A stretch of 64,000 nt of DNA from an uncultured Candidatus Poseidoniales archaeon (lineage in GTDB: Archaea; Thermoplasmatota; Poseidoniia; Poseidoniales; Poseidoniaceae). The stretch covers positions 1-64,000 of the forward strand of contig CAZPME010000008.1 in the NCBI GenBank assembly GCA_964587885.1, given 5' to 3'. Within the stretch, counting starts at the first letter, position 1. The number at the start of each line of letters is the position of its first letter. The position numbers and the translations under genes were made by a program. Below, piece by piece: positions 9,018 through 55,469 of the stretch. Below the pieces are notes generated by a model. The model was given only the letters and a program-made list of their open reading frames with translations. It did no database searches and was not told where the DNA came from.

Positions 9018-9020
9018 TTT

Positions 9021-10304
9021 ATGTCGATTAGGCCTTTCCTTTCTATGCTTCTAGTGTTTATGCTAGTGTTGTCAGGTTGCATTGGTGGAGATGGAGTTAG
9101 TGCGCGTGACTCAGTTTCAAGTGTAGATGGGGGTACAATCACTTTGGTAGTTTGGTCTACCTTCGAGGCAGATTCACTTGAAGATGAGGTTTTTCTCGAT
9201 GCAGTGGAATTGTTTGAAAATGAGCATCCAAATATTGTTGTCGATGTATCAAATCGCCCATTTATGCAGGCTACAGATTCTTTTCGAGTGGCTGCACAGG
9301 GTGGAGAGGCTCCAGATTTGATGCGTTTTGCCAGTGACCAGTTGGGGCAAATTGGAGCAATGCGGGTAAATGGTTATCCTCTACTTGAGGACCTAAGACC
9401 ACATCTTACCCCAAGCGACCGAGCGGTATATGATGCACAAGCACTTTCTTCTATGCGGATTGGGGATGAGTTGTATGCATTACCGGCTAGCCTTGATTGT
9501 GTTAGTTTAATTTACAATGCAGATATTTTTGCCGCCGAAGACATCGCTCTACCCGATAGCAATACTACGTGGGAAGAATTGTTGGAAAAGGCAGATCAAT
9601 TGACTCACGGAAAGCAAGTAGGACTTTCGGTTCCTGTCAAAGACCCATATCGCTGGTTGGCGATGCAGCGCGGTTGGGGTGGTGAATTATTTGACCAAAA
9701 CGGACTACCTACGCTAAACTCAAATGGTTCGGCAGAGGGGCTTTCAGCATGGATTTCCTTAGATGAGTCTCACGGGGGAGTGGTTCCTACTGGTACCAGT
9801 ATTGATGCCATGAAGGCCCAGTTTCGTGAGCGTCAAGCCGCGATGATAATCGACGGACCTTGGAATTGGGCAACTTATACTCAAGCTCGTATTAATGTCG
9901 GTCAAGCACCATTGCCTTTGGTTAATTCTAGTGGTGAAAGAATTTCTCCGATGGTTACCTACAAAGGATGGTCAGTGAGTAAACAAAGCCAGCACAAAGA
10001 GGCTGCGGTAGAACTTGCAATGTGGCTTTCTAGTGAATCGGTGCAGAAGCGTTTTGCACTAGAAACTTGGACAATGCCCACCGCTTTCAATGTGCAAAAT
10101 GACCAACAAGTTCGGGATGATGTCGTACTGACGGGCTTCCTAGAGCAAGCCGAATATGGTTTCCCAGCCCCTACCAGCCAGACGATGGGAATGGTGTGGG
10201 ACCCCCTTTCAGCAGCAATCGAAAATGTATATGCCGAACAATTGAGCGCTGAAGATGCGTTGAATCAAGCAAACCAGCAATTGTTAGAAGAGGTGAATGG
10301 ATGA
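9021..10304 (+). CDS. ABC transporter solute-binding lipoprotein, maltose/maltodextrin (MalE)-like.
   Basis: N-terminal signal with lipobox-like 'VLSGCIGG'; family-1 SBP fold signatures; first gene of an SBP-permease-permease-ATPase operon next to amylolytic enzymes. Confidence 0.8.
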   Translation: MSIRPFLSMLLVFMLVLSGCIGGDGVSARDSVSSVDGGTITLVVWSTFEADSLEDEVFLDAVELFENEHPNIVVDVSNRPFMQATDSFRVAAQGGEAPDLMRFASDQLGQIGAMRVNGYPLLEDLRPHLTPSDRAVYDAQALSSMRIGDELYALPASLDCVSLIYNADIFAAEDIALPDSNTTWEELLEKADQLTHGKQVGLSVPVKDPYRWLAMQRGWGGELFDQNGLPTLNSNGSAEGLSAWISLDESHGGVVPTGTSIDAMKAQFRERQAAMIIDGPWNWATYTQARINVGQAPLPLVNSSGERISPMVTYKGWSVSKQSQHKEAAVELAMWLSSESVQKRFALETWTMPTAFNVQNDQQVRDDVVLTGFLEQAEYGFPAPTSQTMGMVWDPLSAAIENVYAEQLSAEDALNQANQQLLEEVNG

Positions 10305-11788
10305 GACATTGCCTGTTGCTTCCATTCTGGTGTCTATCATTGGTGCTGACTCTTTCCCTTGCTGCGAATGAGGTTGGGGCGGCCCCAGTTGAACAAATCA
10401 GCGCCGATGGCAATGCTGGATACCGTCAGGTGAATTTGACTTGGCATCTACAAAGCCCATCCCAAGATGGTGACGGATTCCAAGTGATGTTTGCGGCGTC
10501 AGATTTCAATGTTTCAGATCAAGCCGAATTGCATTCTATCATTTGGACAGGTGCGACTGAAGATTTGTCTCAACCAGCCGCCGGTGAATGGTATGATGAT
10601 TGTATCAGTCGAAGCGGAACAGGTGAGTGGAATGCAGTCCATCGATCAGTCAATGGCAGTGCGGTTGTACCCGTGGGTGTTGATGAAATCCAATGCACAT
10701 TAACAGGAATGCCGGCTGGCGAAGAGATATTTGTGGCGGTAATTCCAATTGATTGGCAATGGGCTCACGGTGAGTTGAGTGAAACTGTTGCAGTCACCTC
10801 TTCGGCAGTAGATGAATTGCCTCCAAGTTCTGATTCAAGTCCAGTATGGTTTGCAATCGGGAGTATTGCATTATCATTGATCATTCTGCTTTCGTTTATT
10901 GGTTGGAAAGAACGCAGTGCCCAAGGTCGCTCGGCGATGTTTTATGTCGCTCCAGCCTTAATGGCGTTGGCATTGTTGACATTTTATCCGGTTGGATATG
11001 GCATCGTATTATCATTTACCGATGCTAATCAAGGGGCGTTAGGCGAGGAGTCGTTCAATGGTTTGGATAATTATCTCACAGTATTTACCAGCGCCGGATT
11101 CATCCGAGTTCTTGGATTCACACTGCTTTGGACAGTGGTCAACGTTAGCGCCCACATCGGAATTGGCTTGGCTTTAGCTATGGCTTTGCAGGGCAAGATA
11201 AGAGGCAAGGTTGCGTACCGAACGATCCTCCTCTTGCCGTGGGCGATTCCTTCATACATTTCCGTCTTGGTATGGCGTGGGATTTTCCAAAATGACGGAT
11301 TGCTGAATGGGTTACTGGGTACTGAAATCGATATCTTGGGTCTGCCAGCAACCGCGGCAGCGGCTGTAATTTTGGTTAATATTTGGCTCGGTTTCCCTTT
11401 CATGATGATGACGATTTCAGGTGCACTTCAGACTATACCTCGTGATATCTATGAGGCGGCTGAAGTGGACGGAGTATCAGCCATTTCTCAGTTCAGACAT
11501 CTTACTTTACCGATGTTAAAACCGGCGATTGTACCGGTTTCTTTGCTCGGATTTATCTGGACATTCAATATGTTTAACGTGATTTATCTAATGACAGATG
11601 GTGGCCCAAATCTTTGGTTTGGTCAGCCTGGTTCGACAGACATTTTGGTGACCTACGTCTATGATGTCGCATTTAGAAGAGGATTGTATGGTGTGGCAGC
11701 GGCTTGGTCGGTAGTGATTTTCTTGATGCTGTTATGGTTCTCTTATGTCTATATGCGCAAGACCAATGCAACGGAGTCGGTAGTGTGA
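10301..11788 (+). CDS. ABC sugar permease (MalF-like) with an N-terminal signal peptide and an extracellular extension of about 170 aa.
   Basis: Multi-TM MalF/MalG-type permease core with an EAA-like loop; 4-nt overlap with the upstream SBP gene; N-terminal secreted domain 'AAPVEQISADGNAGYRQVNLTWHLQ...'. Confidence 0.8.
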   Translation: MRHCLLLPFWCLSLVLTLSLAANEVGAAPVEQISADGNAGYRQVNLTWHLQSPSQDGDGFQVMFAASDFNVSDQAELHSIIWTGATEDLSQPAAGEWYDDCISRSGTGEWNAVHRSVNGSAVVPVGVDEIQCTLTGMPAGEEIFVAVIPIDWQWAHGELSETVAVTSSAVDELPPSSDSSPVWFAIGSIALSLIILLSFIGWKERSAQGRSAMFYVAPALMALALLTFYPVGYGIVLSFTDANQGALGEESFNGLDNYLTVFTSAGFIRVLGFTLLWTVVNVSAHIGIGLALAMALQGKIRGKVAYRTILLLPWAIPSYISVLVWRGIFQNDGLLNGLLGTEIDILGLPATAAAAVILVNIWLGFPFMMMTISGALQTIPRDIYEAAEVDGVSAISQFRHLTLPMLKPAIVPVSLLGFIWTFNMFNVIYLMTDGGPNLWFGQPGSTDILVTYVYDVAFRRGLYGVAAAWSVVIFLMLLWFSYVYMRKTNATESVV

Positions 11789-13053
11789 GTAATTCCGAAA
11801 GCATTGCAGTACGTTGGTTTGTTCCTCTAGAGTTGAGCATTGTACGCGGTGCAGCAATGTTGTCGAGTTCATTTTTGGCCTTTGTTATGGCGGTAGATTA
11901 TTTGCGCCAAGACGTTGAATCATTGTGGCTTCATGGCCTTGGAATCATCTGTTTATTGGTGATGATTTGGGCCGTATCTAACCATTCTGTGGAAGGAAGA
12001 TTGAGACGCCGAGATATCTCATTACTTGTTAGTGGAGTGGGAATGTCCGTGGGTGTGCTAGGCCTTGCACTACGCAGCCCAGAATACTTGCTAGTGGATA
12101 TTTGGGCGGTGATGTTACTGATTTTTCCTTCGGCATTGTGCCTCTATTCGGCCTCATCACCTGTGGTTTCACGTTGGGCTAAACAGAAACTGTCGCAAGA
12201 TGAAGCCGAATCCGGATTAGTGCGCAATAAGCGTTTATTGCCGCGTTGGAAATCAGCTCTCAAACATGCAGTATTGGCTCATATCCTCATTGTCGTTATC
12301 GTTCCAGTTTTATGGATTATTGATGTTGCAACTTCAAGCGGAAATAGCCTGTTTGGAGGCGAGATGTTTGCCGCCCCAACCGGCGAGCATTTCGCTAATA
12401 TTTTGGGCGGAGATGATTTTTGGATCTGGGCCCGCAACTCAATCATCGTTAGTATCGGCACCACTCTACTGGGGTTATGTCTAGCAATTCCAGCCGGCTA
12501 TGCCTTCTCTCGCTTCCGCTTCAAAGGTCGTGGTGCGATGATGTTTGCATTTTTATTGGTGCAGATGTTTCCAGGCATTATCATCTTGGTTCCATATTTC
12601 ATGGTGATGAAATCACTCGGTCTACTGAACTCGGCTCTAGGGCTGATTCTCGCATATTCTGTTACTGCCTTACCGCTGTGTGTTTGGATGTTAAAGGGTT
12701 TCTTTGATACTGTGCCTAAAGAGTTGGAAGAGGCCGCATTATTGGATGGTTGTAGTCAGTTTGGGGTGTTTTACAGGATAATTTTACCTCTAAGTCTCCC
12801 CGCAATTGCAGTTACAGCACTATTTTCATTCCTCGCTGCTTGGAATGAATTTCTCCTAGCCCTAACCTTCAATACCAGCGATGAAATGTTCACTTTACCC
12901 GTTGGGCTAGCCTCGTATATTTCTGAAACTAATTCGGCTTGGGGTGATTTTGCTGCTATGTCTTTATTGGTTGCAATTCCCGTAGTATTGCTATTCATCG
13001 TCTTCCAGAAATTCCTCATTGAGGGATTGACGGCGGGAAGCGTAAAAGGTTGA
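11785..13053 (+). CDS. ABC sugar permease (MalG-like) with an N-terminal multi-TM extension of about 160 aa. The start is uncertain: GTG 11785 overlapping the upstream stop as GTGA, or ATG 11857.
   Basis: C-terminal 280 aa is a typical MalG-type permease ('FLLVQMFPGIIILVPYF', EAA loop 'ALLDGCSQFGVFYRIILPLS'). Confidence 0.7.
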   Translation: MSNSESIAVRWFVPLELSIVRGAAMLSSSFLAFVMAVDYLRQDVESLWLHGLGIICLLVMIWAVSNHSVEGRLRRRDISLLVSGVGMSVGVLGLALRSPEYLLVDIWAVMLLIFPSALCLYSASSPVVSRWAKQKLSQDEAESGLVRNKRLLPRWKSALKHAVLAHILIVVIVPVLWIIDVATSSGNSLFGGEMFAAPTGEHFANILGGDDFWIWARNSIIVSIGTTLLGLCLAIPAGYAFSRFRFKGRGAMMFAFLLVQMFPGIIILVPYFMVMKSLGLLNSALGLILAYSVTALPLCVWMLKGFFDTVPKELEEAALLDGCSQFGVFYRIILPLSLPAIAVTALFSFLAAWNEFLLALTFNTSDEMFTLPVGLASYISETNSAWGDFAAMSLLVAIPVVLLFIVFQKFLIEGLTAGSVKG

Positions 13054-13064
13054 GAGTGGAAAAA

Positions 13065-13838
13065 ATGAGCAGTGTAAGTTTTGTTGAAGCAGTAAAGACA
13101 TATCCCGATGGTACGACCGCGGTAAAAGGGCTAAATATTGAGGTCAAATCTGGCGAATTTCTAGTATTAGTGGGACCTTCCGGTTGTGGTAAATCGACCA
13201 CATTACGAATGTTGGCTGGGCTTGAGGACATCAGTGGCGGCGAGATCCGGATTGATGGAGCAAGGGTCAACGATTTACCACCCAAAGCACGTGACATTGG
13301 CATGGTTTTCCAGTCTTATGCGTTGTATCCACACATGACCGTAGAGGAAAATCTAACTTTTGGATTACGGATGCTGAAAGGGGATGAGCGATTATCTAGT
13401 GATGAAATCGAGACTAGATTGAAAGAGACCGGTGATTTATTGGGAATTAGTGAATTACTCAGCAAGCGACCTAAGGAACTCTCTGGTGGTCAACGCCAAA
13501 GGGTGGCATTAGGGCGAGCGTTAATTCGAAGGCCGAAGGTATTACTGATGGATGAGCCGCTTTCAAATCTCGATGCAGAATTGCGTAATCAAATGCGCAT
13601 TGAGTTGCGTCGTCTACACGATGAATTGGGAACTACTACGGTTTACGTTACCCACGACCAAATTGAGGCAATGACCTTGGCCGACAGAATCGCCATCTTG
13701 AACGATGGTGAATTGCAGCAACTTGCCCCACCACTAGAGGCCTATAACCAACCAGCGAACGATTTCGTCCGAGGTTTCTTGTGCAAGCATATCGACGAAA
13801 TTGTTTCGACAGCAACTGAGATTTTTTCCAGCAAGTGA
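13065..13838 (+). CDS. ABC transporter ATP-binding protein (MalK/UgpC-like nucleotide-binding domain only; the C-terminal regulatory TOBE domain is absent).
   Basis: Walker A 'GPSGCGKST'; signature 'LSGGQRQRVALGRAL'; Walker B 'LLMDEPLSNLD'; H-loop 'VTHDQ'. The protein ends about 25 aa after the H-loop region. Confidence 0.8.
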   Translation: MSSVSFVEAVKTYPDGTTAVKGLNIEVKSGEFLVLVGPSGCGKSTTLRMLAGLEDISGGEIRIDGARVNDLPPKARDIGMVFQSYALYPHMTVEENLTFGLRMLKGDERLSSDEIETRLKETGDLLGISELLSKRPKELSGGQRQRVALGRALIRRPKVLLMDEPLSNLDAELRNQMRIELRRLHDELGTTTVYVTHDQIEAMTLADRIAILNDGELQQLAPPLEAYNQPANDFVRGFLCKHIDEIVSTATEIFSSK

Positions 13839-13847: not shown

Positions 13848-16352
13848 ATGTATAGTCGGCAGAAATCAATGCTATTGGTAATACTGCTCGTCTTCCAGAC
13901 TTGGATGGTCATTCATGTTCAACCTATTGCATCGTCTGATGGCGAGGGTGTCAGTGCTCCTTTACGTGTTCGCAGCACGATGACTGAATTTTCTTGGCAA
14001 CCGCCGGTTGGTGATGAGATCCCGAACAATGTCAGCCTCGTTGGGGAATGGAATTGGGAGATTCCAGCAGAGATGTCTTTGAACTCGTCTACCGGAATCT
14101 GGTCGGTTGAGTTGGAGTTGGACGAAGGAATATATTGCTACAAGATCATTTTGGATGGCACCGATTATATCTTTGATGTCCACAATCCTGAGCGCATATA
14201 TTGCGATGGAATGGAAAATTCCCTTGCCCGAGTGAATAACCACACTCGCTCAACCTTCTCATTAGAGCTTGATTCAGTCACTGGCTTACCGGCACGAATA
14301 CTATTGCACTCAGGCTCTGATGGCTCAACGCTATTAACAGGGGGGCCAATTTTGAAGAGTGGCTTCTACCCTGGAGTTACCACTTTCAACCAGACAACTG
14401 AAGCATGGGATATCAACCTCAGTGTTTTGCCTGATGGGAAGCACACATTTCACGTCAATGGAGTCGATGATGATGGGTATCATGCCGAGGATATCCTAAT
14501 CCCTTTTTGGCTAGGAGAATCGGCTGATTTTGAATGGCAACAAGCGCTTATCTACATGGTTATGACCGACCGATTCGTCAATGGAAACTCCAGTAATGAT
14601 GGTGCAAATGCTCAATCAACCGCCGATGGAGCAGAATGGCAAGGCGGTGATTTTGCCGGAGTCACAGAAATGATTGAGTCGGGTTATTTCTCCAATCTTG
14701 GAGTAAATGCCCTTTGGCTCACCCCTTTCAATAGTGCAGCGCAAGGTAGTGAAATGGCCGGAGATGGAACTCATGAAGTAAGTTCTTATCACGGCTATTG
14801 GCCAATTGCACCGCGTTCTGTAGATGAGCGTTTGGGAACTGAGGCCGAATTGGAAGAGATGGTGGATGCTGCCCATGAAAATGGAATACGCGTGATGATG
14901 GATTTTGTAGTGAATCATGTGCATGAGGACCACCCATACTATTCCGAAAACCCGGACTGGTTCAATCAAGGATGCCTATGTGGAAGCACAGATTGTGATT
15001 GGACTGAGCATCGCCTCGATTGCTTATTTAGAAATTACATGCCTGATCTCGATTGGACCAACCGCAATGCTAGCGAACAGATGATTGCGGATGGTCTGTG
15101 GTGGTTAGAGCGCTTCGACCTTGATGGTGCTCGCATTGATGCGGTGAAACATGTTGATGATCTTGCAATTTACAATTTTGCTAGTCGAGTTAGTGAGAGG
15201 TTTGAATCTGGCGGCTTGGACTACTATCTCAAAGGTGAGACTGCTATGGGGTGGTCGGGCCATGAATTGAGTGATAATCTCGGTCAATACGAGATGATAA
15301 ATCGCTACATGAGTGAAGGGGGACTGGATGGGCAAGCCGATTTCGTACTCTATCATGCGGTAATTGACAATGTGTTTACAACCGGGCAAATGGATTACCA
15401 ACATCTCGATTATTGGACCAACCGCAGTAATGACCAATATGTTGATGATGCACTTATGGTCAATTTCATTGGTAGCCATGACTCTCCACGATTCATTAGC
15501 CGAGCCGACTCGGGTACTGCGGATGAGTGGAATCAGTGGTCTGAGCAAGGGCTACCGGGACAACCTGGAATTGACGAACCTTACTCGGCAGCGTTGCAAG
15601 CGTTTACCTGGCTGCTGACCTCTCCCAATGTGCCGATGATTTACATGGGTGATGAATATGGAGAATATGGGGGTGCTGACCCCGATAACCGCCACATGTA
15701 TCGCAATATGTCGCAATGGAATGACAGAGAGTCTTCATTGGCTGAAAATGTAAGCGCATTAGGTCGATTGCGCGCCGACCTGAAGGTGCTTCAATATGGT
15801 AATTATTCGACGATATATTCTGCTGCAGACACTTTGGCGATAGAACGTGGTGGTACTAATGTCTCGGCATTAGTGGTGCTGAATCGTGGCGATGAGGTAG
15901 TGGAATTTGCTTGCCCCGCGGGCGCTAACAACTCATATGACTTGCGTTTTGGTCAAGGTCAATGGCAAAATGACCTTGTAACAATAGCGGCCAATCAAGT
16001 AGCCATCTTCGCCTTGAACACCTCTATTGGGGAGGGAAGTGAAACTGACGAGGACAATAATTCGACCAATAACAATAGTGATAATGGTACAAATAATTCA
16101 ACTTCTCCGCTGGATGGCAACTCTACCCAGAATATGACTAATAGTTCAGATACTGGCCCAGATGTGGGAAATGGTAGCGGTAATACTAACGGGACTGACA
16201 TAAACAACACTGAGGATGGTGGGAATGGAGACCAAACTGAGGTTGACGAGCCGAATTCTAGCAGTAGTCAAATCACCGTAGTGAGAGCCATATTGTTAAT
16301 AATTCTTGGTCTACTGATAATACAAGTAGGTATTCACCGGTCCAAAGAATAA
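13848..16352 (+). CDS. Secreted GH13 alpha-amylase with a C-terminal Asn/Ser/Thr-rich stalk and a single C-terminal TM anchor.
   Basis: Signal peptide; GH13 conserved regions 'DFVVNHV', 'GARIDAVKHV', 'FIGSHDSPRF'; N/S/T-rich linker full of N-x-S/T sequons; C-terminal hydrophobic 'VVRAILLIILGLLIIQVGI' plus 'HRSKE'. Confidence 0.85.
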   Translation: MYSRQKSMLLVILLVFQTWMVIHVQPIASSDGEGVSAPLRVRSTMTEFSWQPPVGDEIPNNVSLVGEWNWEIPAEMSLNSSTGIWSVELELDEGIYCYKIILDGTDYIFDVHNPERIYCDGMENSLARVNNHTRSTFSLELDSVTGLPARILLHSGSDGSTLLTGGPILKSGFYPGVTTFNQTTEAWDINLSVLPDGKHTFHVNGVDDDGYHAEDILIPFWLGESADFEWQQALIYMVMTDRFVNGNSSNDGANAQSTADGAEWQGGDFAGVTEMIESGYFSNLGVNALWLTPFNSAAQGSEMAGDGTHEVSSYHGYWPIAPRSVDERLGTEAELEEMVDAAHENGIRVMMDFVVNHVHEDHPYYSENPDWFNQGCLCGSTDCDWTEHRLDCLFRNYMPDLDWTNRNASEQMIADGLWWLERFDLDGARIDAVKHVDDLAIYNFASRVSERFESGGLDYYLKGETAMGWSGHELSDNLGQYEMINRYMSEGGLDGQADFVLYHAVIDNVFTTGQMDYQHLDYWTNRSNDQYVDDALMVNFIGSHDSPRFISRADSGTADEWNQWSEQGLPGQPGIDEPYSAALQAFTWLLTSPNVPMIYMGDEYGEYGGADPDNRHMYRNMSQWNDRESSLAENVSALGRLRADLKVLQYGNYSTIYSAADTLAIERGGTNVSALVVLNRGDEVVEFACPAGANNSYDLRFGQGQWQNDLVTIAANQVAIFALNTSIGEGSETDEDNNSTNNNSDNGTNNSTSPLDGNSTQNMTNSSDTGPDVGNGSGNTNGTDINNTEDGGNGDQTEVDEPNSSSSQITVVRAILLIILGLLIIQVGIHRSKE

Positions 16353-16358: not shown

Positions 16359-19300
16359 TTATTCCTTACCGAATCGGGTATAAAATTCGCCATAATCATC
16401 GAGCATTCGTGCTGCACTAAATTTCGAACCAGCGGTAATTGCCCCGCGCACAATGGGCAACCATTTTTCCGCTCCGGCCTCCCATAATGGAATTACTTCA
16501 TGCTCTAACACATCGAGGATTGCTTCACCATCGCGCTCATCATCTCTATCCATCTCATCATTGCCAATCGCCCAGCCATTGATTCCGTGGGCACAAGCCT
16601 CTGGCCACCATCCGTCGAGGATTGAGCAGTTAGGCACTCCACTCATACTTGCCTTCATTCCGCTGGTACCACTAGCTTCCATTGGTCGGACCGGATTATT
16701 GAGCCAAATATCGACACCATTGGTCATCACACGACCGGTTTCCATCGAGTAATCTTCCAAGAAAGCAACTGGAATCTTGCCTTGCAATTCAGTTGCAGCC
16801 TCAAAGACATTGCTGATCAATTGCTTACCACCCTCATCCCGAGGATGAGCCTTTCCTGCGAATACAAATTGGATTTTACCGGCTCCAATACGCTCTAATC
16901 TTTTGAGGTTGCGAAATACTAAGTCTGCACGCTTGTAGGTGGCAAAGCGGCGAGCAAATCCTATGGTTAGTGCATTTGACTCAAATTCGACACCGGTGCA
17001 GACTTTGACCAAGTCGTGTAATATTGAACGGGAGGTATTCCTCGCCGCCATTAAGGCATCATCCGGTGCTAGATGGTTGTCTACTAATTTAGCAGGATCT
17101 TTTCTCCATTCTGGTAGATGAACGTCAAATAATTCCTGCATAGGTGGACCAACCCAAGTTAGGTGGTGCACGCCATTGGTTATGGGATGAACTTGGTATT
17201 CAGGAAACATTCCTGCTGCAACTTGTGCATTTAGTATGGATACTGCGTTTACTTGACCAGCGAAATAGGCTGCTAAATGTGACATTGAACAGGCATTACC
17301 ACCCAAATAATTCCGCACCTCAATTGGTAATAATTCGCCTAATATCGCTTCAACATCTTCCCATGCAAAGTAGTCGTGTCCTGCTGGAACTGGAGTGTGG
17401 GTGGTGAATAGACTGCGCTGAGATAATTCCTCACGACTCCAACCTTGAGACAACATTTCCAGTGCTGCGAAGGCACAATGGCCTTCATTCATGTGAATTC
17501 CCTGCAAGGGCCACCGTCCGAGAGCCTTCAGAGCCCTTACACCACCGACGCCGAGCAAATATTCTTGGCGAATACGTGTTTCATCACCTCCTCCATAGAG
17601 GCGCTCACCTAACGAGGAATGAATGGAGTCATTATCCGGATGCATGGTGTCGAGAAATAAGACGTCGATTTCGTTACCGAATTCCGACTTTATGGTATAT
17701 TTCCAAATTCTACTAATCAGAGATTTTCCGTCGAGTGGAATGGCGATGTCGACGCCGGTATCGTCGAGAATAGTGCGTGGGTCAAAAGCGGGAAAGGTTT
17801 CGGTTTGTTTGCCTTTTTCATCGAGGTGTTGGCGTCCGTAACCGTGGCGGTATAGTAAGGTGACAGCGATAAAATTGAGCCCCTTGTCGGCGGCGGCTTT
17901 GATATGGTCGCCGGCTAGAACTCCTAGGCCACCTGAATAGGTAGGTAGGTCACTACGCAATCCTATTTCAGCACTGAAATAGGCGATTATATTCGTCCCA
18001 CTCTTGGAATCTTTTGGCTCATTGATAATACTCCGACCACTCTCAATGGTTTTGTTGGCGAGCCAAGAAAAATCACTTGGTTCAATATCATCCCATTCAA
18101 ATTGCCACAGCCAGTTGCCGATTTTACTACCGGGTGTATTCATGCGCGCTGATGATTCTAACCCCATCACATCTTGCAAGGGTATAATCGTAGTTTGGGC
18201 ACGACTAAAAAGGGCTGAGCGCATTAGACGACGGTGGATTGGGCGGTCATTCTTATCGATGATGATTTCATCATCAAGGGTGTTAGCAACTTGATCACGA
18301 CCCTCTTGATTGAGATTAGAAAACCAACCGACTGTTGTGTTGTTATCGTGAGTTCCACTATAGCAAATCACATCTTCAGCAATATTAGTAGGTAGGTGAG
18401 GGTTGTCACTATTACCATCAAAAGCGAATTGTAAAACTGCCATTCCTTGCATTTCATGCCGTTGCCGTAATTCAATAACCTCTGGTGGGATGATGCCGAG
18501 GTCTTCAGCGATGAGGCGTCCTTCACCCGCGACATCCTTCAGTGCATCTAGCAATTCATCGCGCGGACCTGCGACCCATGCACCATCAGCAGCACTTTCA
18601 GACGAAGCAGGAATCGACCAATAGTCGTGAATAGCGCGGAAGTGATCGATTCGCAGGCGATGAAAACGGCCAAGAGAAGTTGCGATTCTAGCCCGCCACC
18701 AAGCGAAACCTTCACTCTGATGGGCATTCCAATTGTAAAGTGGTGTACCCCAAAATTGACCCTGGTCACTGAATGCATCGGGTGGCACTCCAGATACATG
18801 TGTTGGCTCTCCATCTTCATTGAGTTGGAAGAGGTTCTGATTGGCCCATACGTCGGCGCTATCATAGGCGATGAAAAAAGGAATGTCGCCAATCAATTCA
18901 ATGTCTCTTTCTTCAGCAGCAGCACGCAATTCATCCCACTGTTTGGCAAAGGCCAACTGCTCGCCTATATGCCGCCAATAATCGTGAATATTTTCGGCCT
19001 TCAACGATTCCAAGGCGGCACGTTTACGGTTTCTTAATGGCTCATCCCACTGCGACCAAGGAGCCCAATCATTGAGTTGCTTGGCGATTTGATATAGTGC
19101 CCAATCATGTACCCAAGGATTTTGAAGACGAAATTCCATCAACCCGCCATGAGCAAAAACCCTAGTTGCGATTTCTTTGTCGAGTAGAGTAATATCTCCA
19201 GCGAAGGCAGATGTGCTAGCATAGGGCGAATCGTATTGGTCGGGGGGGTGGATTGGCAACATCTGCCACGCCGATTGTCCTGCACTCTGCAATAGGTCGA

Positions 19301-19418
19301 GAAAGCGCATGGCATGCTGACCTAATCCTCCCCTTGCCTTGTCATTAGGCAGGGAAGTTAAATGGCAAAGGAGGCCACTCTTGCGCATATTATCGTGGCG
19401 GCCGAGAAGGGGATTCAA
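16359..19418 (-). CDS. Fusion protein: N-terminal GH77 4-alpha-glucanotransferase (amylomaltase, MalQ-like) plus C-terminal GT35 alpha-glucan/maltodextrin phosphorylase (MalP-like).
   Basis: N-terminus 'RKSGLLCHLTSLPNDKARGGLGQHAMRFLDLLQSAGQSAWQMLPIHPP...DSPYASTSAFAGD' is the canonical GH77 signature; C-terminal half has the GT35 PLP-site 'EASGTSGMKA'. Single 1019-aa ORF, no internal stop. Confidence 0.8.
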   Translation of the reverse strand: MNPLLGRHDNMRKSGLLCHLTSLPNDKARGGLGQHAMRFLDLLQSAGQSAWQMLPIHPPDQYDSPYASTSAFAGDITLLDKEIATRVFAHGGLMEFRLQNPWVHDWALYQIAKQLNDWAPWSQWDEPLRNRKRAALESLKAENIHDYWRHIGEQLAFAKQWDELRAAAEERDIELIGDIPFFIAYDSADVWANQNLFQLNEDGEPTHVSGVPPDAFSDQGQFWGTPLYNWNAHQSEGFAWWRARIATSLGRFHRLRIDHFRAIHDYWSIPASSESAADGAWVAGPRDELLDALKDVAGEGRLIAEDLGIIPPEVIELRQRHEMQGMAVLQFAFDGNSDNPHLPTNIAEDVICYSGTHDNNTTVGWFSNLNQEGRDQVANTLDDEIIIDKNDRPIHRRLMRSALFSRAQTTIIPLQDVMGLESSARMNTPGSKIGNWLWQFEWDDIEPSDFSWLANKTIESGRSIINEPKDSKSGTNIIAYFSAEIGLRSDLPTYSGGLGVLAGDHIKAAADKGLNFIAVTLLYRHGYGRQHLDEKGKQTETFPAFDPRTILDDTGVDIAIPLDGKSLISRIWKYTIKSEFGNEIDVLFLDTMHPDNDSIHSSLGERLYGGGDETRIRQEYLLGVGGVRALKALGRWPLQGIHMNEGHCAFAALEMLSQGWSREELSQRSLFTTHTPVPAGHDYFAWEDVEAILGELLPIEVRNYLGGNACSMSHLAAYFAGQVNAVSILNAQVAAGMFPEYQVHPITNGVHHLTWVGPPMQELFDVHLPEWRKDPAKLVDNHLAPDDALMAARNTSRSILHDLVKVCTGVEFESNALTIGFARRFATYKRADLVFRNLKRLERIGAGKIQFVFAGKAHPRDEGGKQLISNVFEAATELQGKIPVAFLEDYSMETGRVMTNGVDIWLNNPVRPMEASGTSGMKASMSGVPNCSILDGWWPEACAHGINGWAIGNDEMDRDDERDGEAILDVLEHEVIPLWEAGAEKWLPIVRGAITAGSKFSAARMLDDYGEFYTRFGKE

Positions 19419-19476
19419 CTTACCCCTCCTCGCAAGTCAGAGAATCACTAATAGCGAAACCGGACTTAGACCTCAT

Positions 19477-22400
19477 ATGTCCGAGCACTGCGGCGTATTC
19501 ATGGTTCTTTCAGTGCTACTGATTATGCCTTGGAGCGGAGTTTACGCTGCCACACCTGACAACATTACCATTGATGGTGATATATCTGAATGGGATTCGG
19601 ACACCCTAATCGACACCTCCTCTCATTCTGTACCATCATTTAGGATAACTTGGGATGAAACATTCCTGTTTATTGCGTGGAGCGGGACTGATTGGTCAAG
19701 TACTAGTGAGGGGGCAGATTTCTTTGTTTATCTAAACACCACAAGTGGTGGCAGTCCGCTGTCAAAGGATTGGAATTCGGTTCACACACTACCATTTTCA
19801 GCCGATTTTGCTTTCATTCTTGAGGATTCATCCTATTATTCATTGCAGACCTACGATGGTGCGGAATGGGTTGATGCAGATCAAACCGGAGTGTCATCAT
19901 ATGTAGGCTGGTCAGGTAATCAAAACACAGAGATTGCAATTCCGTGGGCTAACATCGGTTCGCCTACCAGTTTCGCCTTCCTTGCTTGGGCACAATGGCA
20001 GGAAGATGGAAATGTATGGATATCATTCCCACCTGAAAATCCTGCTTCCAACGATGGTGCTGAGACCTTCACATTCGGCTATGTGGTTGCAGATCGAACC
20101 ATTGAACAGACTCCGGCATACACATGTTTAGCACAAGATTTTTCTGGTAGCGTAGACAAGTTAGATGATGCTCTCAATTTAGCAATAGTATTCCATCAAC
20201 ATCAGCCATATTACAAGAATAAATTGAGCGGGATGTACGAGATGCCATGGGTACGGGTTCACGCCATGACTGAATATGTCGATTCACCGGGAATATTGTC
20301 CAAATATCCCGAGACTAAGATTACCTACAATTTAGTTCCCTCATTCATAGAGCAATTGGTTGATTACCATACTAATTCAGCCCTCGATGTTCACAGTGAA
20401 TTTGCTCGTCGCGATTGGCCTGTAGATGAAAATGGAAGTTTGTCCGGTTATCCAAACGCTACCGCCTTAGAATTGCATACTATGCAATTCCAATCCTTTT
20501 GGAATTCTGGATGGATTTACAATGTTTCATCCGACGATAGCAAATTATCATGGTTGTATCCCTCGAGTCAAAGATATGCCGAAATCTATGACTTGACTTT
20601 ACATAATCTAAAACCGGCTACAATCATGAATGATGAATTGCTTGACCCGCAGGAATTTCTTGACCTGCAAGTTCTATGGTATCTCTATCAATTCTCTCCT
20701 GATTATGTTCTCGGCGATTACCAAGATTTGGATGACTCAATTGGAGATAGTCGGCCCGCACATGGAGATACTGGTTTACAGGCGCTTTTTGCCCAGAATG
20801 GAGGCTATTCAGTAAGTGACCTGACTTACGTTCTCGACGCTCAATATAGTCACATGGCTAATGTTCTACCGATGTATTCACAATTGGCTGCCCGTGGTCA
20901 AGTTGAATTAACAACCACGCCTTATTATCATCCAATAATGCCATTGTTGATGATGGATGGTTGGACTTTTGAAGACGGTATTGAAGTGCAAAAAGATTCG
21001 TGGCCAGAGGACACTCAAAATCATCTTGTCAACGGAATGAATCTGTTTGAGGATGAGTTGGGCTTCCGCCCTACAGGTATGTGGCCGAGTGAGCAATCAG
21101 TTAGTCCAGCAATGGTTGAGCCGGTAAGTGATGTTGGGATTCAATGGATGGTCACTGATGAAGTCAATCTTGCGGGCTCGACCGATTTATCCGGAAATTA
21201 TGTTGATACGAGTATAGCCAGTAATCTTGCAACACCTTGGATTGCTACTGGAGTTGACGGTGGTGAAGTAGCGACTATTTTCCGAGACCGAGTCATCAGT
21301 GACCGTATCGCCTTTGAGTATGGAGTGATGAGTCCTGAAGCAGCAGTTAGCGATTTTATTTCCTATGTTGATGGGATTAGAAATGAATTGAAGGCTGATG
21401 GATTAGACCCGAGCGAGTATATGCTAACTGTAGCTTTAGATGGTGAGAACTGGATGTTCATGTCAGAGTTTCAGCACCACGACAATGCTCGACCATTCAC
21501 CGATGAATGGTTCTCTCGCCTTGCCTTACACCCAAGTATCAAAACTACAACACCAAGCGAATTTTTGGCCAAGAATACAACCTTGCCGCGCATAGGTACA
21601 ATCTCTACCGGTTCGTGGATTGACGGCACGCTTTCGACTTGGGCTGGTGAGGCTGAGGAGAGCCTTGGTTGGCAAAGATTGGTCGAAGCGAGAAAGTCGC
21701 TGGTTGAATTTGAGCAAGATAATCCTCAACACGCGGGATTGGCCAATGCTTGGGAATCCCTTTACATCGCTGAAGGTAGTGATTGGTTTTGGTGGTATGG
21801 TCTTGACCAAGACAGTGGCTATGATGAATTGTGGGATACTCTTTTCAAAGTACATTTAGCCAATATTTACCGCGCTATTGAATTAGAATTACCGCCCTAT
21901 TTACAAGATTTATGGACCAGTGCGGCATTGCCTACTGTACCCTATTCGGGAATTGTCGAGCCACTGATTGACGGTGTCGCATTGGCCGGTGAGTGGGATG
22001 GGGCGGCAAAATATTCGGCTCCAAATAATGGGGATGTATTGGATATCACCTCGTTTCATTTTGGCTATGATGCCAGCAATGTGTACTTGCGAGTAGATAT
22101 GAGCGAAATTAACAACCTCATCAACACAACCGGACAAACCCCAGATCTTTCGGTCTATTTTATGCAACCAAACGCCATCAATTTCAATGAAGTCGAAACA
22201 AATTATCGCACTTATTTCGGCAACCAAATACTCGGTTTCCCATCAAAGAGTATGGTCTCACTTAACCTTGACGACCTGCGTAGTGATGGGCGATGTTCGT
22301 GGATATTATTTACAGCACAAGGCAAGATAGGGGATAAAGAATCGTGGGTTGGCAGCGTCCCTAGTGCACTAGGAACCGCCGCTGCTGCAGAAGTAATTGA

Positions 22401-23991
22401 GTTACAGATTCCCTGGGCTGAATTAGGTTTGGCACCACGGTATACAACTCGAATTAAAGTGGTGACGAGTTTGGCTAATTCCACCGCTTATGGTGATGGA
22501 ATAGACTTGGAAATGGCTCCCCCTGCCCCAGCCGAAGTCCAACTTCCTGACCTTGAATCGTGGATTGAGATGTTAGATATGTCCGACCCCACAGGTGATG
22601 AGAATGGATCTGGCGACGTGGTCTATGCCAACTCTGGGGATTTTGCTCCAGGGCATGGACTCTTTGATTTAACAAATGTGAAAATGATGCAATCATCATG
22701 GAATGTTCGTTTCGAATTCACCATGTCTCAGATGACAAATATCTGGGGGATGAGCAATGGATTCAGCCACCAAATCGTGCAGGTTTATGTTGATAAAGAC
22801 CGCATAAGCGGCTCTGGAAATATCGCCATGCTCGAAGGAGCAAACGCTGAAGCCCATCCTGACTGGGCTTGGGAAGTTGCACTTTCTGCAACCGGAGAAC
22901 CTGGAGCAGTCAAAGCCGTGCTCGCTGATACCGGGGAGACCACAGCCAAGGGAATTGAAGTCACAGCTGAAACTGCTTCCAAGAAGATAACTATGACCGT
23001 ATCAAAGAATTTGATTGGCGCATCACCACAAGATTATGGCTACATTATAGTCGTTGGAAGCCAAGATGGTTTTGGCCCCGGAAAATGGCGTGAAGTTGAT
23101 GCAACGGCAGGAACTTGGGTTCTTGGTGGTGGCGATAATGCTGCTGATGATGGCATAGACTACGACCCAAATATACTGGATATGTTATTGGATCCCGAAT
23201 CCGACCAAGCACAAATGCTGGCCGGATATAGCACTTCGAGCCATTCATTTGCCCAGTTACAGGGAATTGAAATCCCTGAAGTGCCGCAGCAAATATTTGG
23301 TTTAAGCGTGGGTGTTGTGACCGGAACTACTGCAGTAGTTACTTGGTCGACCACCCAAAGTGCAGTATCGGAAATAACTTATCATCCGCTTAACGATTCA
23401 GCAAATAGTTCTCAAGTTTTTAGCCAAAACTCGACCTCACATGGTTTAACTTTGACCGGATTGCTAACCAACACCTCCTATTTGGTCACAATAAATATCC
23501 AAGGAGTTACAGCGGCCAATATTGAATTGACTACCTCTGCTATCGCCGATATTACTGCCCCGGAAATCCTCAACTTTGCGGCCGAGATATTGGGTGCTGG
23601 GCAGGTACGAGTCTCATGGTTTACTTCTGAGGCGACGACTGAGCATTTGACTTGGGATGGTGGTGAGAAAGAAGGCGATACAATCGCACTTTCCAAATCA
23701 CATGAATTTATTATCACCCTGCCAAATGGAACGAATATTGTCACTTTGACTGCCAAAGATGCTGCTGGAAATAGCAATACTTCAAGCATTGAAGTGATAA
23801 TTACCGATGGATTGCCTACATCCGAGGATTGCCCTAATGGCAGCGATTGCGCAAACCTAAATGAGGGCGAAGAAACATCATCAAGCCTAAGCGTCATTGT
23901 CTCCGATCCGCTAATGCAGGTGGTATTGCTGGTGATTGCGATATTAGTAGTGACTGCATTTTGGCGAGTTGCCCGTGAAACCGATGTGTGA
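19477..23991 (+). CDS. Secreted GH57 amylopullulanase-like enzyme with an N-terminal CBM9/DOMON-like module, C-terminal FN3-like domains and a C-terminal TM anchor.
   Basis: Signal peptide from ATG 19477 (the track's 19339 start overlaps the divergent gene); GH57 hallmark 'AIVFHQHQPYY'; FN3-like 'VTGTTAVVTWSTTQSAV...YLVTINI'; C-terminal 'VVLLVIAILVVTAFWRVARETDV'. Confidence 0.8.
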   Translation: MSEHCGVFMVLSVLLIMPWSGVYAATPDNITIDGDISEWDSDTLIDTSSHSVPSFRITWDETFLFIAWSGTDWSSTSEGADFFVYLNTTSGGSPLSKDWNSVHTLPFSADFAFILEDSSYYSLQTYDGAEWVDADQTGVSSYVGWSGNQNTEIAIPWANIGSPTSFAFLAWAQWQEDGNVWISFPPENPASNDGAETFTFGYVVADRTIEQTPAYTCLAQDFSGSVDKLDDALNLAIVFHQHQPYYKNKLSGMYEMPWVRVHAMTEYVDSPGILSKYPETKITYNLVPSFIEQLVDYHTNSALDVHSEFARRDWPVDENGSLSGYPNATALELHTMQFQSFWNSGWIYNVSSDDSKLSWLYPSSQRYAEIYDLTLHNLKPATIMNDELLDPQEFLDLQVLWYLYQFSPDYVLGDYQDLDDSIGDSRPAHGDTGLQALFAQNGGYSVSDLTYVLDAQYSHMANVLPMYSQLAARGQVELTTTPYYHPIMPLLMMDGWTFEDGIEVQKDSWPEDTQNHLVNGMNLFEDELGFRPTGMWPSEQSVSPAMVEPVSDVGIQWMVTDEVNLAGSTDLSGNYVDTSIASNLATPWIATGVDGGEVATIFRDRVISDRIAFEYGVMSPEAAVSDFISYVDGIRNELKADGLDPSEYMLTVALDGENWMFMSEFQHHDNARPFTDEWFSRLALHPSIKTTTPSEFLAKNTTLPRIGTISTGSWIDGTLSTWAGEAEESLGWQRLVEARKSLVEFEQDNPQHAGLANAWESLYIAEGSDWFWWYGLDQDSGYDELWDTLFKVHLANIYRAIELELPPYLQDLWTSAALPTVPYSGIVEPLIDGVALAGEWDGAAKYSAPNNGDVLDITSFHFGYDASNVYLRVDMSEINNLINTTGQTPDLSVYFMQPNAINFNEVETNYRTYFGNQILGFPSKSMVSLNLDDLRSDGRCSWILFTAQGKIGDKESWVGSVPSALGTAAAAEVIELQIPWAELGLAPRYTTRIKVVTSLANSTAYGDGIDLEMAPPAPAEVQLPDLESWIEMLDMSDPTGDENGSGDVVYANSGDFAPGHGLFDLTNVKMMQSSWNVRFEFTMSQMTNIWGMSNGFSHQIVQVYVDKDRISGSGNIAMLEGANAEAHPDWAWEVALSATGEPGAVKAVLADTGETTAKGIEVTAETASKKITMTVSKNLIGASPQDYGYIIVVGSQDGFGPGKWREVDATAGTWVLGGGDNAADDGIDYDPNILDMLLDPESDQAQMLAGYSTSSHSFAQLQGIEIPEVPQQIFGLSVGVVTGTTAVVTWSTTQSAVSEITYHPLNDSANSSQVFSQNSTSHGLTLTGLLTNTSYLVTINIQGVTAANIELTTSAIADITAPEILNFAAEILGAGQVRVSWFTSEATTEHLTWDGGEKEGDTIALSKSHEFIITLPNGTNIVTLTAKDAAGNSNTSSIEVIITDGLPTSEDCPNGSDCANLNEGEETSSSLSVIVSDPLMQVVLLVIAILVVTAFWRVARETDV

Positions 23992-55460: not shown

Positions 55461-55469
55461 GGTGCGAGA

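What the first reader, a model, noticed from the sequence alone, without database searches (positions are those of the whole stretch)
16359..19418. Single-polypeptide fusion of GH77 amylomaltase (MalQ) and GT35 maltodextrin phosphorylase (MalP)
A 1019-aa ORF with an unmistakable GH77 N-terminal half and a GT35 C-terminal half (PLP motif 'EASGTSGMKA'). MalQ and MalP act sequentially in maltodextrin catabolism, but the genes are normally separate. A covalent fusion would channel glucans from disproportionation to phosphorolysis. The fusion is divergently paired with the GH57 gene across a gap of about 60 bp.
Basis: partly seen in the sequence, partly recalled or inferred. Interest (0 to 1): 0.55.

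Follow-up and report, generated by a model that had tools for sequence, protein, structure and literature searches.

The report
Fused amylomaltase–glucan phosphorylase in marine archaeon
A marine Group II archaeon encodes the two enzymes that finish off imported starch fragments (a chain-shuffling GH77 glucanotransferase and a GT35 phosphorylase) as one intact 1009-residue protein. The fusion is real and conserved, arose from neighbouring genes, and is an uncharacterised but unsurprising variant of a well-known two-enzyme pathway.

Summary
A continuous minus-strand ORF (16359-19418) encodes an N-terminal GH77 4-alpha-glucanotransferase and a C-terminal GT35 alpha-glucan phosphorylase, and all catalytic residues are intact in both halves.

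- The real start is most likely ATG 19388, giving 1009 aa. This is 100% identical to NCBI MDP6639809.1 from a Ca. Poseidoniaceae MAG.
- The phosphorylase is not E. coli-type MalP. It is a compact (~545 aa) member of the "alpha-glucan family phosphorylase" clade (TIGR02094). It lacks the N-terminal helical and C-terminal beta domains of its closest solved relative, Segatella copri GP.
- The fusion is not an artefact. It recurs in at least 9 full-length near-identical sequences from four data sources, and in orthologues at 69% and 51% identity with the same gene neighbourhood.

Related archaeal contigs carry the same two genes unfused, adjacent and in the same order, 33 nt or 1 nt apart. One fused clade keeps the old initiator Met inside its linker, so this looks like a Rosetta-stone fusion of neighbouring genes.

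GH77-GT35 fusions arose independently in Myxococcota (GH57-GH77-GT35) and in Coprococcus/Lachnospiraceae. I found no paper describing any of them.

The locus (secreted GH57 and GH13, a sugar ABC importer) points to cytoplasmic maltodextrin catabolism. True substrate channelling is untested.

The parts
16359..19388 (-). Most likely CDS of the fusion protein (1009 aa plus TAA stop at 16359-16361). The maximal ORF extends to a TTG at 19418.
   Evidence: The product is 100% identical to NCBI MDP6639809.1. The TTG extension is not conserved in frame in the L021 orthologue.
18024..19388 (-). GH77 4-alpha-glucanotransferase (amylomaltase / D-enzyme type) domain, residues 1-455. Catalytic residues: D248 (18645-18647), E295 (18504-18506), D348 (18345-18347). 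No signal peptide.
   Evidence: Pfam and NCBIfam matches. Alignment to Thermus amylomaltase 1CWY places these residues on D293/E340/D395. All three are invariant in 12 fusion proteins. Foldseek TM 0.85-0.87 to GH77 structures. Coordinates.
17991..18023 (-). Inter-domain linker, residues ~456-466 (NEPKDSKSGTN). It contains no Met, so there is no internal start for the phosphorylase half.
   Evidence: AlphaFold2 pLDDT < 50 for residues 456-464. Linker length varies from ~12 to ~50 residues among orthologues.
16362..17990 (-). Compact GT35 alpha-glucan phosphorylase domain (TIGR02094 clade), residues 467-1009. Key residues: PLP lysine K912 (16653-16655) in EASGTSGMKA; R813/R814 (16947-16952); K819 (16932-16934); H664 (17397-17399).
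   Evidence: NCBIfam TIGR02094 at 484 bits against a cut-off of 191.7. Alignment to Segatella copri GP 9L6I residues 109-712. The ScGP catalytic residues H316, R507, R508, K513 and K609 are named in PMC12912991. These residues are invariant. Foldseek E=1.9e-44 to 9L6I.
19389..19476 (.). Divergent intergenic (promoter / 5'-UTR) region between the fusion gene and the GH57 gene. It holds two DNA blocks conserved with a 68%-identical orthologue locus: ...CTATTAGTGATT... and an imperfect palindrome with arms at 19404-19412 and 19423-19431.
   Evidence: A regulatory role is inferred, not shown. No Rfam family matches here.
19477..23991 (+). Divergently transcribed ~1504-aa GH57 enzyme with a signal-peptide-like N-terminus, a Glucodextran_C (SLH-like) module and an fn3 domain. 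It is the presumed cell-surface alpha-glucan depolymerase.
   Evidence: Pfam matches. N-terminal sequence. The same gene is the divergent neighbour in the orthologous loci L021-L024 and L033.
13848..16352 (+). Convergent 834-aa GH13 alpha-amylase-family enzyme with a CBM48-like N-terminal module and a signal-peptide-like N-terminus.
   Evidence: Syntenic in L024, L030 and L037.
8316..13838 (+). HAD hydrolase (8316-9017) and a carbohydrate ABC importer: solute-binding protein 9021-10304, two permeases 10301-11788 and ~11704-13053, and ATPase 13050-13838.
   Evidence: Pfam matches. The SBP resembles MalE/GanS-type sugar-binding proteins, below the curated cut-offs. The same gene order is seen in L021-L023.

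Best explanation
This is a real, expressed-as-one bifunctional cytoplasmic enzyme of a Marine Group II (Ca. Poseidoniaceae) archaeon. It is the terminal step of an alpha-glucan utilisation locus.

**Proposed pathway**
1. Secreted or surface GH57 and GH13 enzymes cut starch- or glycogen-like glucans.
2. An ABC importer brings the maltodextrins into the cell.
3. The N-terminal GH77 domain disproportionates short maltodextrins, releasing glucose and building longer chains.
4. The C-terminal PLP-dependent GT35 domain phosphorolyses those chains from the non-reducing end to glucose-1-phosphate.
5. The phosphorylase's limit dextrin is handed back to the GH77 domain.

**Origin.** The fusion arose from two adjacent, co-directional genes by loss of the stop codon and short spacer.

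**Likely benefit.** The fusion most probably gives obligatory 1:1 co-expression and tethered proximity of two enzymes that feed each other. A rigid tunnel is not required.

**Shown:** the domain identities, intact catalytic residues, conservation of the fusion, the existence of unfused adjacent orthologues, and the locus composition.

**Inferred:** the activities, the catabolic direction, the cytoplasmic location, and any kinetic benefit.
For: **Domain assignment and curated cut-offs passed**.

**GH77 catalytic centre.** The Asp/Glu/Asp triad aligns to 1CWY D293/E340/D395.

**GT35 catalytic centre.** H664, R813, R814, K819 and K912 align to the ScGP catalytic residues. All are invariant across 12 fusion proteins.

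**Structure prediction.** The AlphaFold2 model has mean pLDDT 90 and pTM 0.72, with only the linker disordered. Both folds are recovered by Foldseek.

**The fusion is reproducible.**
- The 90%-identity cluster has 17 members, including at least 9 full-length sequences from ENA, JGI, Logan and NCBI, on contigs up to 130 kb.
- Orthologues at 69% and 51% identity have the same architecture and synteny.

**Unfused state in the same locus.**
- L033, L034 and L035 (three independent contigs) carry GH77 of 422 aa, a 33-nt in-frame spacer with three stop codons, then GT35 of 539 aa.
- L036 carries the two genes 1 nt apart.
- The P0005 fused clade has ...HRMGLVGYFTAEIG, with the Met exactly where the L033 and P0193 GT35 proteins start.

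**Location and context.**
- No signal peptide on the fusion, but signal-like N-termini on GH13 and GH57.
- ABC importer genes lie adjacent.

**Convergence.** Independent GH77-GT35 fusions exist in Myxococcota and Lachnospiraceae.

**Literature.**
- The MalQ/MalP cycle is the established route (quoted in PMC5814915).
- GH57 and GH77 transcripts are reported as abundant in MG-II (PMC4660358).
Against: - No biochemical or expression data exist for this protein.
- No member of the compact ~550-aa GT35 subgroup has, to my knowledge, been characterised. Chain-length preference and oligomeric state are therefore unknown.
- The GT35 half lacks the helical domain that mediates oligomerisation in the nearest solved relative.
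- The GH77 domain is ~45 residues shorter than Thermus amylomaltase. Query residues 76-86 align against 1CWY residues 80-130.
- Phosphoglucomutase and glucokinase were not found in the window.
- GT35 reactions are reversible, so the direction is inferred from context only.
- Closely related lineages do well with unfused genes, or with GT35 alone. The selective advantage of fusion may therefore be small.
Confidence: 0.8

Rival explanations
1. Dedicated substrate channelling. The two domains pack in a fixed geometry, or into an oligomer, that passes malto-oligosaccharide intermediates directly between active sites. This would be a covalent counterpart of the plant plastidial PHS1-DPE1 complex.
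For: - Rice PHS1 (GT35) and DPE1 (GH77) form a complex with a proposed substrate tunnel and higher catalytic efficiency (PMC13342499).
- The fusion evolved independently at least three times.
- AlphaFold2 pTM of 0.72 for a two-domain protein hints at a preferred mutual arrangement.
Against: - The linker is predicted disordered, and its length and sequence vary ~12-50 residues among orthologues.
- Unfused and GT35-only relatives are interleaved with fused ones in the tree.
- No inter-domain confidence (PAE) or coordinates were available to locate the active sites.
- The plant complex involves a different GT35 clade and works mainly in the synthetic direction.
Confidence: 0.2
2. The enzyme works mainly in the synthetic or remodelling direction. 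It would build or prime storage alpha-glucan from G1P and short maltodextrins, as PHS1-DPE1 does in rice endosperm.
For: - GT35 and GH77 reactions are reversible.
- The plant PHS1-DPE1 pair produces long malto-oligosaccharide primers.
- A short GT35 relative is found fused to a glycogen-synthase domain (P0282).
Against: - The gene sits between secreted amylolytic enzymes and a sugar ABC importer.
- No glycogen synthase, branching enzyme or nucleotide-sugar pyrophosphorylase is present in the 64-kb window.
- The same catabolic-looking synteny holds in all orthologous loci.
Confidence: 0.08
3. Only one half is catalytically relevant. The other would be a degenerate glucan-binding or regulatory module.
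For: - The GH77 half is shortened relative to characterised amylomaltases.
- The GT35 half is truncated at both ends relative to ScGP.
Against: - Every catalytic residue checked is conserved and invariant across fusion proteins that are 38-71% identical to the window protein.
- Both halves exceed the curated family cut-offs.
- Standalone proteins of the same compact sizes exist.
Confidence: 0.05
4. Assembly error or frameshift artefact that joins two separate genes.
For: Related contigs do have the two genes separate, only 1-33 nt apart. A single indel or base error could in principle create or destroy the fusion.
Against: - The identical 1009-aa protein is on an independent NCBI contig.
- At least 9 full-length members at >=90% identity come from four sources.
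- Fused orthologues at 69% and 51% identity have different linkers.
- The unfused spacer carries three stop codons, not one.
Confidence: 0.02

Closest known systems
E. coli MalQ (amylomaltase) + MalP (maltodextrin phosphorylase) cycle, and the equivalent linked malQ/malP genes of Firmicutes
   Same: It uses the same two chemistries acting on each other's products to turn imported maltodextrins into glucose + G1P. The genes are commonly adjacent (quoted in PMC5814915). The GH77 half passes the malQ equivalog cut-off.
   Different: - Here the two enzymes are one polypeptide.
- The phosphorylase belongs to a different GT35 clade (TIGR02094, not TIGR02093/MalP) and is ~250 residues shorter.
- The host is an archaeon.
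Segatella copri glycogen phosphorylase ScGP (PDB 9L6I; clade-2 GT35; PMC12912991)
   Same: It is the closest solved relative of the C-terminal half (E=4e-86). It shares the catalytic His, Arg-Arg, Lys and PLP-Lys and the GT-B core.
   Different: - ScGP is 852 aa. It has an N-terminal loop and helical domain that build a pentamer, and a C-terminal beta-sheet domain.
- The window protein aligns only to ScGP residues 109-712. It carries GH77 where the helical domain would be, and it has no beta domain.
Rice plastidial PHS1-DPE1 complex (GT35 + GH77, non-covalent; PMC13342499)
   Same: The same two CAZy families are physically associated. That paper proposes transfer of malto-oligosaccharide intermediates between them.
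   Different: - It is a non-covalent hetero-oligomer of a classical long GT35 with an L80 insert.
- It acts in starch synthesis and priming.
- Here the link is a covalent tether, the GT35 is of the compact clade-2 type, and the context is catabolic.
Other GH77-GT35 fusions in databases: Myxococcota GH57-DUF3536-GH77-GT35 (~1535 aa, e.g. MEE2755220.1) and Coprococcus/Lachnospiraceae GH77 + classical GT35 (~1258 aa, WP_082431303.1)
   Same: They have the same domain order (GH77 N-terminal to GT35) and the same presumed pathway logic.
   Different: - They have independent origins. In NJ trees the myxobacterial GT35 groups with long DUF3417-type phosphorylases (bootstrap 99-100) and its GH77 groups with plant-DPE1-like sequences.
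- The Lachnospiraceae form uses a classical ~750-aa GT35.
- The archaeal fusions nest among standalone compact GT35s.
Known MalQ fusions: GlgX-MalQ, TreY-MalQ, GlgB-MalQ (Neisseria)
   Same: GH77 is often fused to another alpha-glucan enzyme (NCBIfam models; hits; GlgB-MalQ mentioned in PMC11046441).
   Different: In those fusions the partner is a GH13 enzyme, not a phosphorylase. The window protein fails those equivalog cut-offs.

Membership tests
GH77 4-alpha-glucanotransferase (amylomaltase/MalQ/DPE1) | Sequence profile match above curated thresholds | tested here: met
   - PF02446: 425.7 bits against a cut-off of 25.
- TIGR00217 malQ: 240.9 bits against a cut-off of 205.65.
- NF011080: 490.7 bits against a cut-off of 477.
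GH77 4-alpha-glucanotransferase (amylomaltase/MalQ/DPE1) | Catalytic Asp nucleophile / Glu acid-base / Asp transition-state stabiliser (D293/E340/D395 in Thermus aquaticus; the residue roles are from my own knowledge of the family) | tested here: met
   D248, E295 and D348 align to those positions of 1CWY. They are invariant in 12 fusion proteins.
GH77 4-alpha-glucanotransferase (amylomaltase/MalQ/DPE1) | GH77 fold | tested here: met
   The AlphaFold2 model matches 2X1I, 1CWY and 1TZ7 with target-normalised TM 0.85-0.87 and E~1e-43. A ~45-residue segment present in Thermus is missing.
GH77 4-alpha-glucanotransferase (amylomaltase/MalQ/DPE1) | Disproportionating activity on maltodextrins | not testable with these tools
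   This needs an enzyme assay.
GT35, 'alpha-glucan family phosphorylase' clade (TIGR02094; clade 2 of PMC12912991) | Profile match above the curated threshold over the full core | tested here: met
   TIGR02094: 484.2 bits against a cut-off of 191.7, profile positions 1-595 of 600.
GT35, 'alpha-glucan family phosphorylase' clade (TIGR02094; clade 2 of PMC12912991) | PLP-binding Lys and the substrate/phosphate residues (ScGP K609, R507, R508, K513, H316) | tested here: met
   K912, R813, R814, K819 and H664 align to them. All are invariant.
GT35, 'alpha-glucan family phosphorylase' clade (TIGR02094; clade 2 of PMC12912991) | N-terminal helical domain (DUF3417) and C-terminal beta domain of the long members such as ScGP | tested here: not met
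   The alignment covers only ScGP residues 109-712 of 852, and there is no PF11897 hit. Many standalone ~550-aa members also lack these domains. This marks a compact subgroup rather than exclusion from the clade.
Classical glycogen/maltodextrin phosphorylase (TIGR02093; E. coli MalP NF011561) | Equivalog or subfamily score above the curated cut-off | tested here: not met
   - TIGR02093: 51.1 bits against a cut-off of 552.9.
- NF011561 (MalP): 39.6 bits against a cut-off of 1273.
- NF011562 (GlgP): 20.2 bits against a cut-off of 1546.

The protein works like MalP but is not a member of that subfamily.
Thermococcales maltodextrin phosphorylase (NF041129) | Equivalog cut-off | tested here: not met
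   405.5 bits against a cut-off of 1500. The match covers profile positions 98-684 of 816.
Rosetta-stone fusion of adjacent operon genes | Orthologous domains encoded as separate, adjacent, co-directional genes in related genomes at the same locus | tested here: met
   - L033, L034, L035: GH77 | 33-nt spacer with 3 stop codons | GT35, next to the same GH57 gene.
- L036: the two genes are 1 nt apart.
- In both domain trees the unfused pair is sister to a fused clade.

The most novel reading that the evidence does not exclude
The covalent GH77-GT35 tether is a repeatedly selected solution for true intermediate hand-over. It was invented at least three times, possibly twice within Marine Group II alone. 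The fusion would behave as a self-contained maltodextrin-to-G1P machine, in which the phosphorylase's limit dextrins never leave the enzyme. That would make it a minimal, monomeric counterpart of the plant PHS1-DPE1 channelling complex. The naturally fused and unfused orthologue pairs in sister lineages would then offer a ready-made experimental system for measuring what gene fusion buys.
Probability: 0.2. Interest if true: 0.55.

Novelty: new variant of a known kind. Interest (0 to 1): 0.4.

Why it matters
Marine Group II archaea are abundant and uncultured, and their carbohydrate use is inferred only from genomes. This locus gives a complete and conserved route for alpha-glucan use:
- surface GH57 and GH13 enzymes,
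- an ABC importer,
- a fused GH77-GT35 finishing enzyme.

Current annotations hide half of that enzyme's function. It is labelled either '4-alpha-glucanotransferase' or 'starch phosphorylase', never both.

For enzymologists, the compact ~545-aa GT35 and the natural fused/unfused orthologue pairs offer a clean test of whether tethering two mutually feeding glucan enzymes improves flux. That question was made topical by the 2026 PHS1-DPE1 complex structure. It also bears on cell-free starch-to-G1P conversion, which uses these two enzyme activities.

The find is incremental, not a new principle.

Tried and rejected
- **Genome-contig scan** with the window protein. It returned only standalone GT35 genes of Desulfobacterota, Rhodothermales and similar, through one conserved peptide pattern. 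There were no Poseidoniales loci, so it said nothing about species-level distribution.
- **Exact look-up of the 1019-aa TTG-start product**. It found nothing, while the 1009-aa product was found. I therefore rejected the TTG start.
- **Foldseek against afdb50** was unavailable. UniProt-level architecture and organism names could not be obtained that way.
- **Literature searches** for GH77/GT35 fusion, MalQ-GlgP/MalQ-MalP fusion, Coprococcus + GH77 + GT35, and Marine Group II + GH77. None found a description of a natural GH77-GT35 fusion. The library excludes most subscription journals, so absence is not proof.
- **First Biopython bootstrap run** timed out. I replaced it with a numpy NJ bootstrap. 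These are distance trees with midpoint rooting, not ML.
- **Single origin of the archaeal and myxobacterial fusions.** I considered this because the triple fusions were the next-best full-length hits. I rejected it because both domain trees separate them.
- **Internal translation start for the GT35 half.** I considered this and rejected it for the window, because there is no Met between residues 416 and 582.
- **Rfam** found no known RNA in the conserved intergenic block.


Full report
**1. Observation**

The window carries an uninterrupted minus-strand ORF at 16359..19418, 1019 codons from a TTG.
- Pfam places Glyco_hydro_77 (E=3e-127) in the N-terminal half and Phosphorylase PF00343 (E=9e-17) in the C-terminal half.
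- NCBIfam is more informative. TIGR00217 malQ and NF011080 pass their curated cut-offs for the N-half.
- TIGR02094 'alpha-glucan family phosphorylase' matches residues 478-1011 over essentially the whole profile (484 bits, cut-off 191.7).
Its lysine is K912 of the 1009-aa protein.

The observation therefore stands.

**2. Start codon**

The real start is most likely the ATG at 19388, giving 1009 aa.
- That product is 100% identical to NCBI MDP6639809.1, a Ca. Poseidoniaceae MAG protein on an independent 6.3-kb contig.
- Orthologues start at the equivalent position.
- In the 68%-identical orthologue locus L021, the DNA equivalent to the TTG extension is conserved as DNA but is out of frame with GH77.

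**3. Not an artefact**

- The 90%-identity cluster around this protein has 17 members. At least nine are full length, they come from ENA, JGI, Logan and NCBI, and they sit on contigs up to 130 kb.
- Fused orthologues exist at 69% identity (P0002-P0004, named Ca. Poseidoniales / Euryarchaeota by NCBI) and at 51% identity (P0005-P0011). Their linkers differ in length and sequence.
- The gene neighbourhood is the same in those loci.
- The window also encodes an archaeal PolD small subunit, RFC and aRF1/Pelota-type proteins, consistent with an archaeon.

**4. Both halves look catalytically competent**

- Alignment to Thermus amylomaltase 1CWY puts D248/E295/D348 on the catalytic D293/E340/D395.
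- Alignment to the closest solved phosphorylase, Segatella copri GP (9L6I), puts H664, R813, R814, K819 and K912 on H316, R507, R508, K513 and the PLP-bearing K609. The authors identify these as the catalytic residues.
- All of them are invariant in an alignment of 12 fusion proteins whose identity to the window protein ranges from 38% to 71%.
- An AlphaFold2 model built on 74 sequences has mean pLDDT 90 and pTM 0.72. Residues with pLDDT below 50 fall in two segments, 375-381 and the linker 456-464.
- Foldseek recovers GH77 structures (TM 0.85-0.87) and ScGP (E=2e-44). No solved chain contains both domains.

**5. What kind of phosphorylase**

- The protein fails the classical GT35 models: TIGR02093 at 51 vs 553 bits, and E. 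coli MalP at 40 vs 1273 bits. 'MalP' therefore describes the role, not the family.
- It aligns to ScGP residues 109-712 of 852. It lacks the N-terminal helical domain, which builds the pentamer in ScGP, and it lacks the C-terminal beta domain.
- Many standalone proteins of ~550 aa have the same compact form.
- The GH77 half is also compact, about 45 residues shorter than the Thermus enzyme.

**6. Context**

- Upstream on the plus strand lie a HAD hydrolase, a sugar-binding protein, two permeases and an ABC ATPase.
- Next comes an 834-aa GH13 enzyme with a CBM48-like module. It ends 6 nt from the fusion gene's stop, in convergent orientation.
- Divergent from the fusion gene is a ~1504-aa GH57 protein with Glucodextran_C (SLH-like) and fn3 modules.
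- GH13 and GH57 both start with signal-peptide-like hydrophobic segments. The fusion starts directly with the GH77 core.
- The locus therefore reads as extracellular depolymerisation, import, then cytoplasmic processing.
- Li et al. 2015 reported abundant GH57 amylopullulanase and GH77 transcripts in MG-II (PMC4660358). Orellana et al. 2019 mention GH13, GH57 and GH77 as reported for one MGIIa genus (PMC6864105). Neither passage mentions a fusion.

**7. Origin of the fusion**

A HMMER scan of 1.84 billion 50%-identity representatives returned only two two-domain representatives among the top 150: the archaeal clade and the myxobacterial triple fusion. It also returned close standalone halves. 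Their contigs are informative.
- L033, L034 and L035 are three independent contigs, one from Tara. They carry the same divergent GH57 gene, then a 422-aa GH77 gene, then a 33-nt spacer, then a 539-aa GT35 gene starting MGIVGYFTAEVG.
- The L033 spacer is in frame and contains three stop codons.
- L036 has GH77 TAG-C-ATG GT35, a 1-nt spacer. That GT35 is 60% identical to the window's C-half.
- L030-L032 have a standalone GT35 (62% identical) convergent with the same GH13-ABC genes and no GH77 upstream.
- The 983-aa fused clade reads ...SRLHRMGLVGYFTAEIG. It keeps a Met exactly where the unfused GT35s initiate.

NJ bootstrap trees of each half agree with one another.
- The window clade (fused) is sister to a group in which the L033 unfused pair, the GT35-only P0193 and the 983-aa fused clade are nested.
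- Standalone compact GT35s form the outgroups.

So fusion and fission are labile within this archaeal group. Two independent fusions, or one fusion plus reversals, both fit. I could not decide between them with distance trees.

**8. Recurrence elsewhere**

- Myxococcota and 'Deltaproteobacteria' MAGs encode a GH57-DUF3536-GH77-GT35 protein of ~1535 aa.
  - Its GT35 groups with long DUF3417-type phosphorylases (bootstrap 99-100).
  - Its GH77 groups with plant-DPE1-like sequences.
  - Both are away from the archaeal clade.
- A ~1258-aa GH77 + classical GT35 protein is very common in gut metagenomes, with clusters of 2736, 1613, 639 and 396 members.
  - One of these is RefSeq WP_082431303.1 of Coprococcus / Lachnospiraceae.
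  - It sits next to a two-component system and a sugar ABC importer.
- The compact GT35 is also found fused to GH57 modules and to a glycogen-synthase domain.

The architecture as such is therefore already in databases, under single-function names. Eight full-text searches found no paper describing it. The 2024 Chem Rev survey of prokaryotic alpha-glucan enzymes lists TreS-Mak, GlgA-GlgB and GlgB-MalQ fusions in the part held, but not this one.

**9. Mechanism**

The best-supported reading is the classical glucanotransferase/phosphorylase cycle on one chain. This cycle is Boos & Shuman's MalQ/MalP scheme, quoted in PMC5814915. From my own knowledge, the analogous 4-alpha-glucanotransferase + maltodextrin phosphorylase route has been described in Thermococcus litoralis.
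- GH77 turns short imported dextrins into glucose plus longer chains.
- GT35 converts the longer chains to G1P and returns its limit dextrin to GH77.

Whether the tether does more than guarantee stoichiometry and proximity is open.
- The rice PHS1-DPE1 complex shows that these two families can cooperate physically, with proposed intermediate transfer (PMC13342499).
- Repeated independent fusion suggests a selective benefit.
- Against a fixed channel: the linker is disordered and variable, and sister lineages manage unfused.

**10. Verdict**

This is a real, conserved, database-visible but undescribed bifunctional enzyme. It is a new variant of a well-understood two-enzyme system.
- It is of moderate interest. 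It improves annotation of MGII carbohydrate metabolism.
- Together with its unfused orthologues, it offers a neat natural system for testing the value of enzyme fusion.

Noticed in passing
window 19389-19476 (blocks at ~19404-19431 and ~19440-19451); L021 9848-9950: The divergent intergenic region between the fusion gene and the GH57 gene holds two DNA blocks that are almost invariant between the window and a locus whose proteins are only 68-71% identical. The blocks are CTATTAGTGATT and the imperfect palindrome GGAGGGGTAAGTTGAAyCCCCTTCTCG. A GTGAT(A) element also occurs in the intergenic regions of the more distant L024 and L033 loci. This may be an operator or a 5'-UTR hairpin (GTGATA recalls half of the Thermococcales TGM motif; that comparison is from memory only). 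No Rfam family matches here.
   Followed up: partly
window 26811-28346 (-): A second two-enzyme fusion lies in the same neighbourhood. A PfkB-type 2-keto-3-deoxygluconate kinase domain is fused to a KDPG/KHG aldolase domain in one 511-aa ORF. It is conserved as a 508-aa gene in L021-L023. These are consecutive steps of a semi-phosphorylative Entner-Doudoroff route.
   Followed up: partly
L033 6001-8922; L034; L035; L036 1093-3394: Related archaeal contigs encode the GH77 and GT35 as separate adjacent genes. In one lineage they are separated by a 33-nt in-frame spacer with three stop codons. In another the spacing is 1 nt. These are natural unfused controls for the fusion.
   Followed up: yes
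L030 6009-8507: In the relative that has a standalone GT35 and no GH77 upstream, the sugar-binding protein and one ABC permease are fused into a single 832-aa product.
   Followed up: no
P0196, P0021, P0282 (proteins): The compact TIGR02094-type GT35 is also fused to other glucan enzymes: GH57+DUF3536 (1092 aa), a GH57 amylase/4-alpha-glucanotransferase C-terminal domain (776 aa, possibly partial), and a glycogen-synthase domain plus DUF3417 (1167 aa).
   Followed up: partly
window 62-8131 (+), 43589-52702 (+), 52464-58304 (+): There are giant ORFs of 2689 aa and 3037 aa. The first has only an archaeal type IV pilin N-terminal-like motif near residue 2514. The second has three CBM96 modules. 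Two further ~950-1000-aa ORFs have no Pfam match. They are probably surface proteins.
   Followed up: no
window 40940-41067 (+) and 26648-26720 (+): Two tRNA genes are present. The one at 40940-41067 spans 128 nt against a 71-position model, which suggests an intron-containing archaeal tRNA.
   Followed up: no
window 59174-60844 (-): An amino-acid permease carries a C-terminal EF-hand pair, an unusual combination for an archaeal transporter.
   Followed up: no
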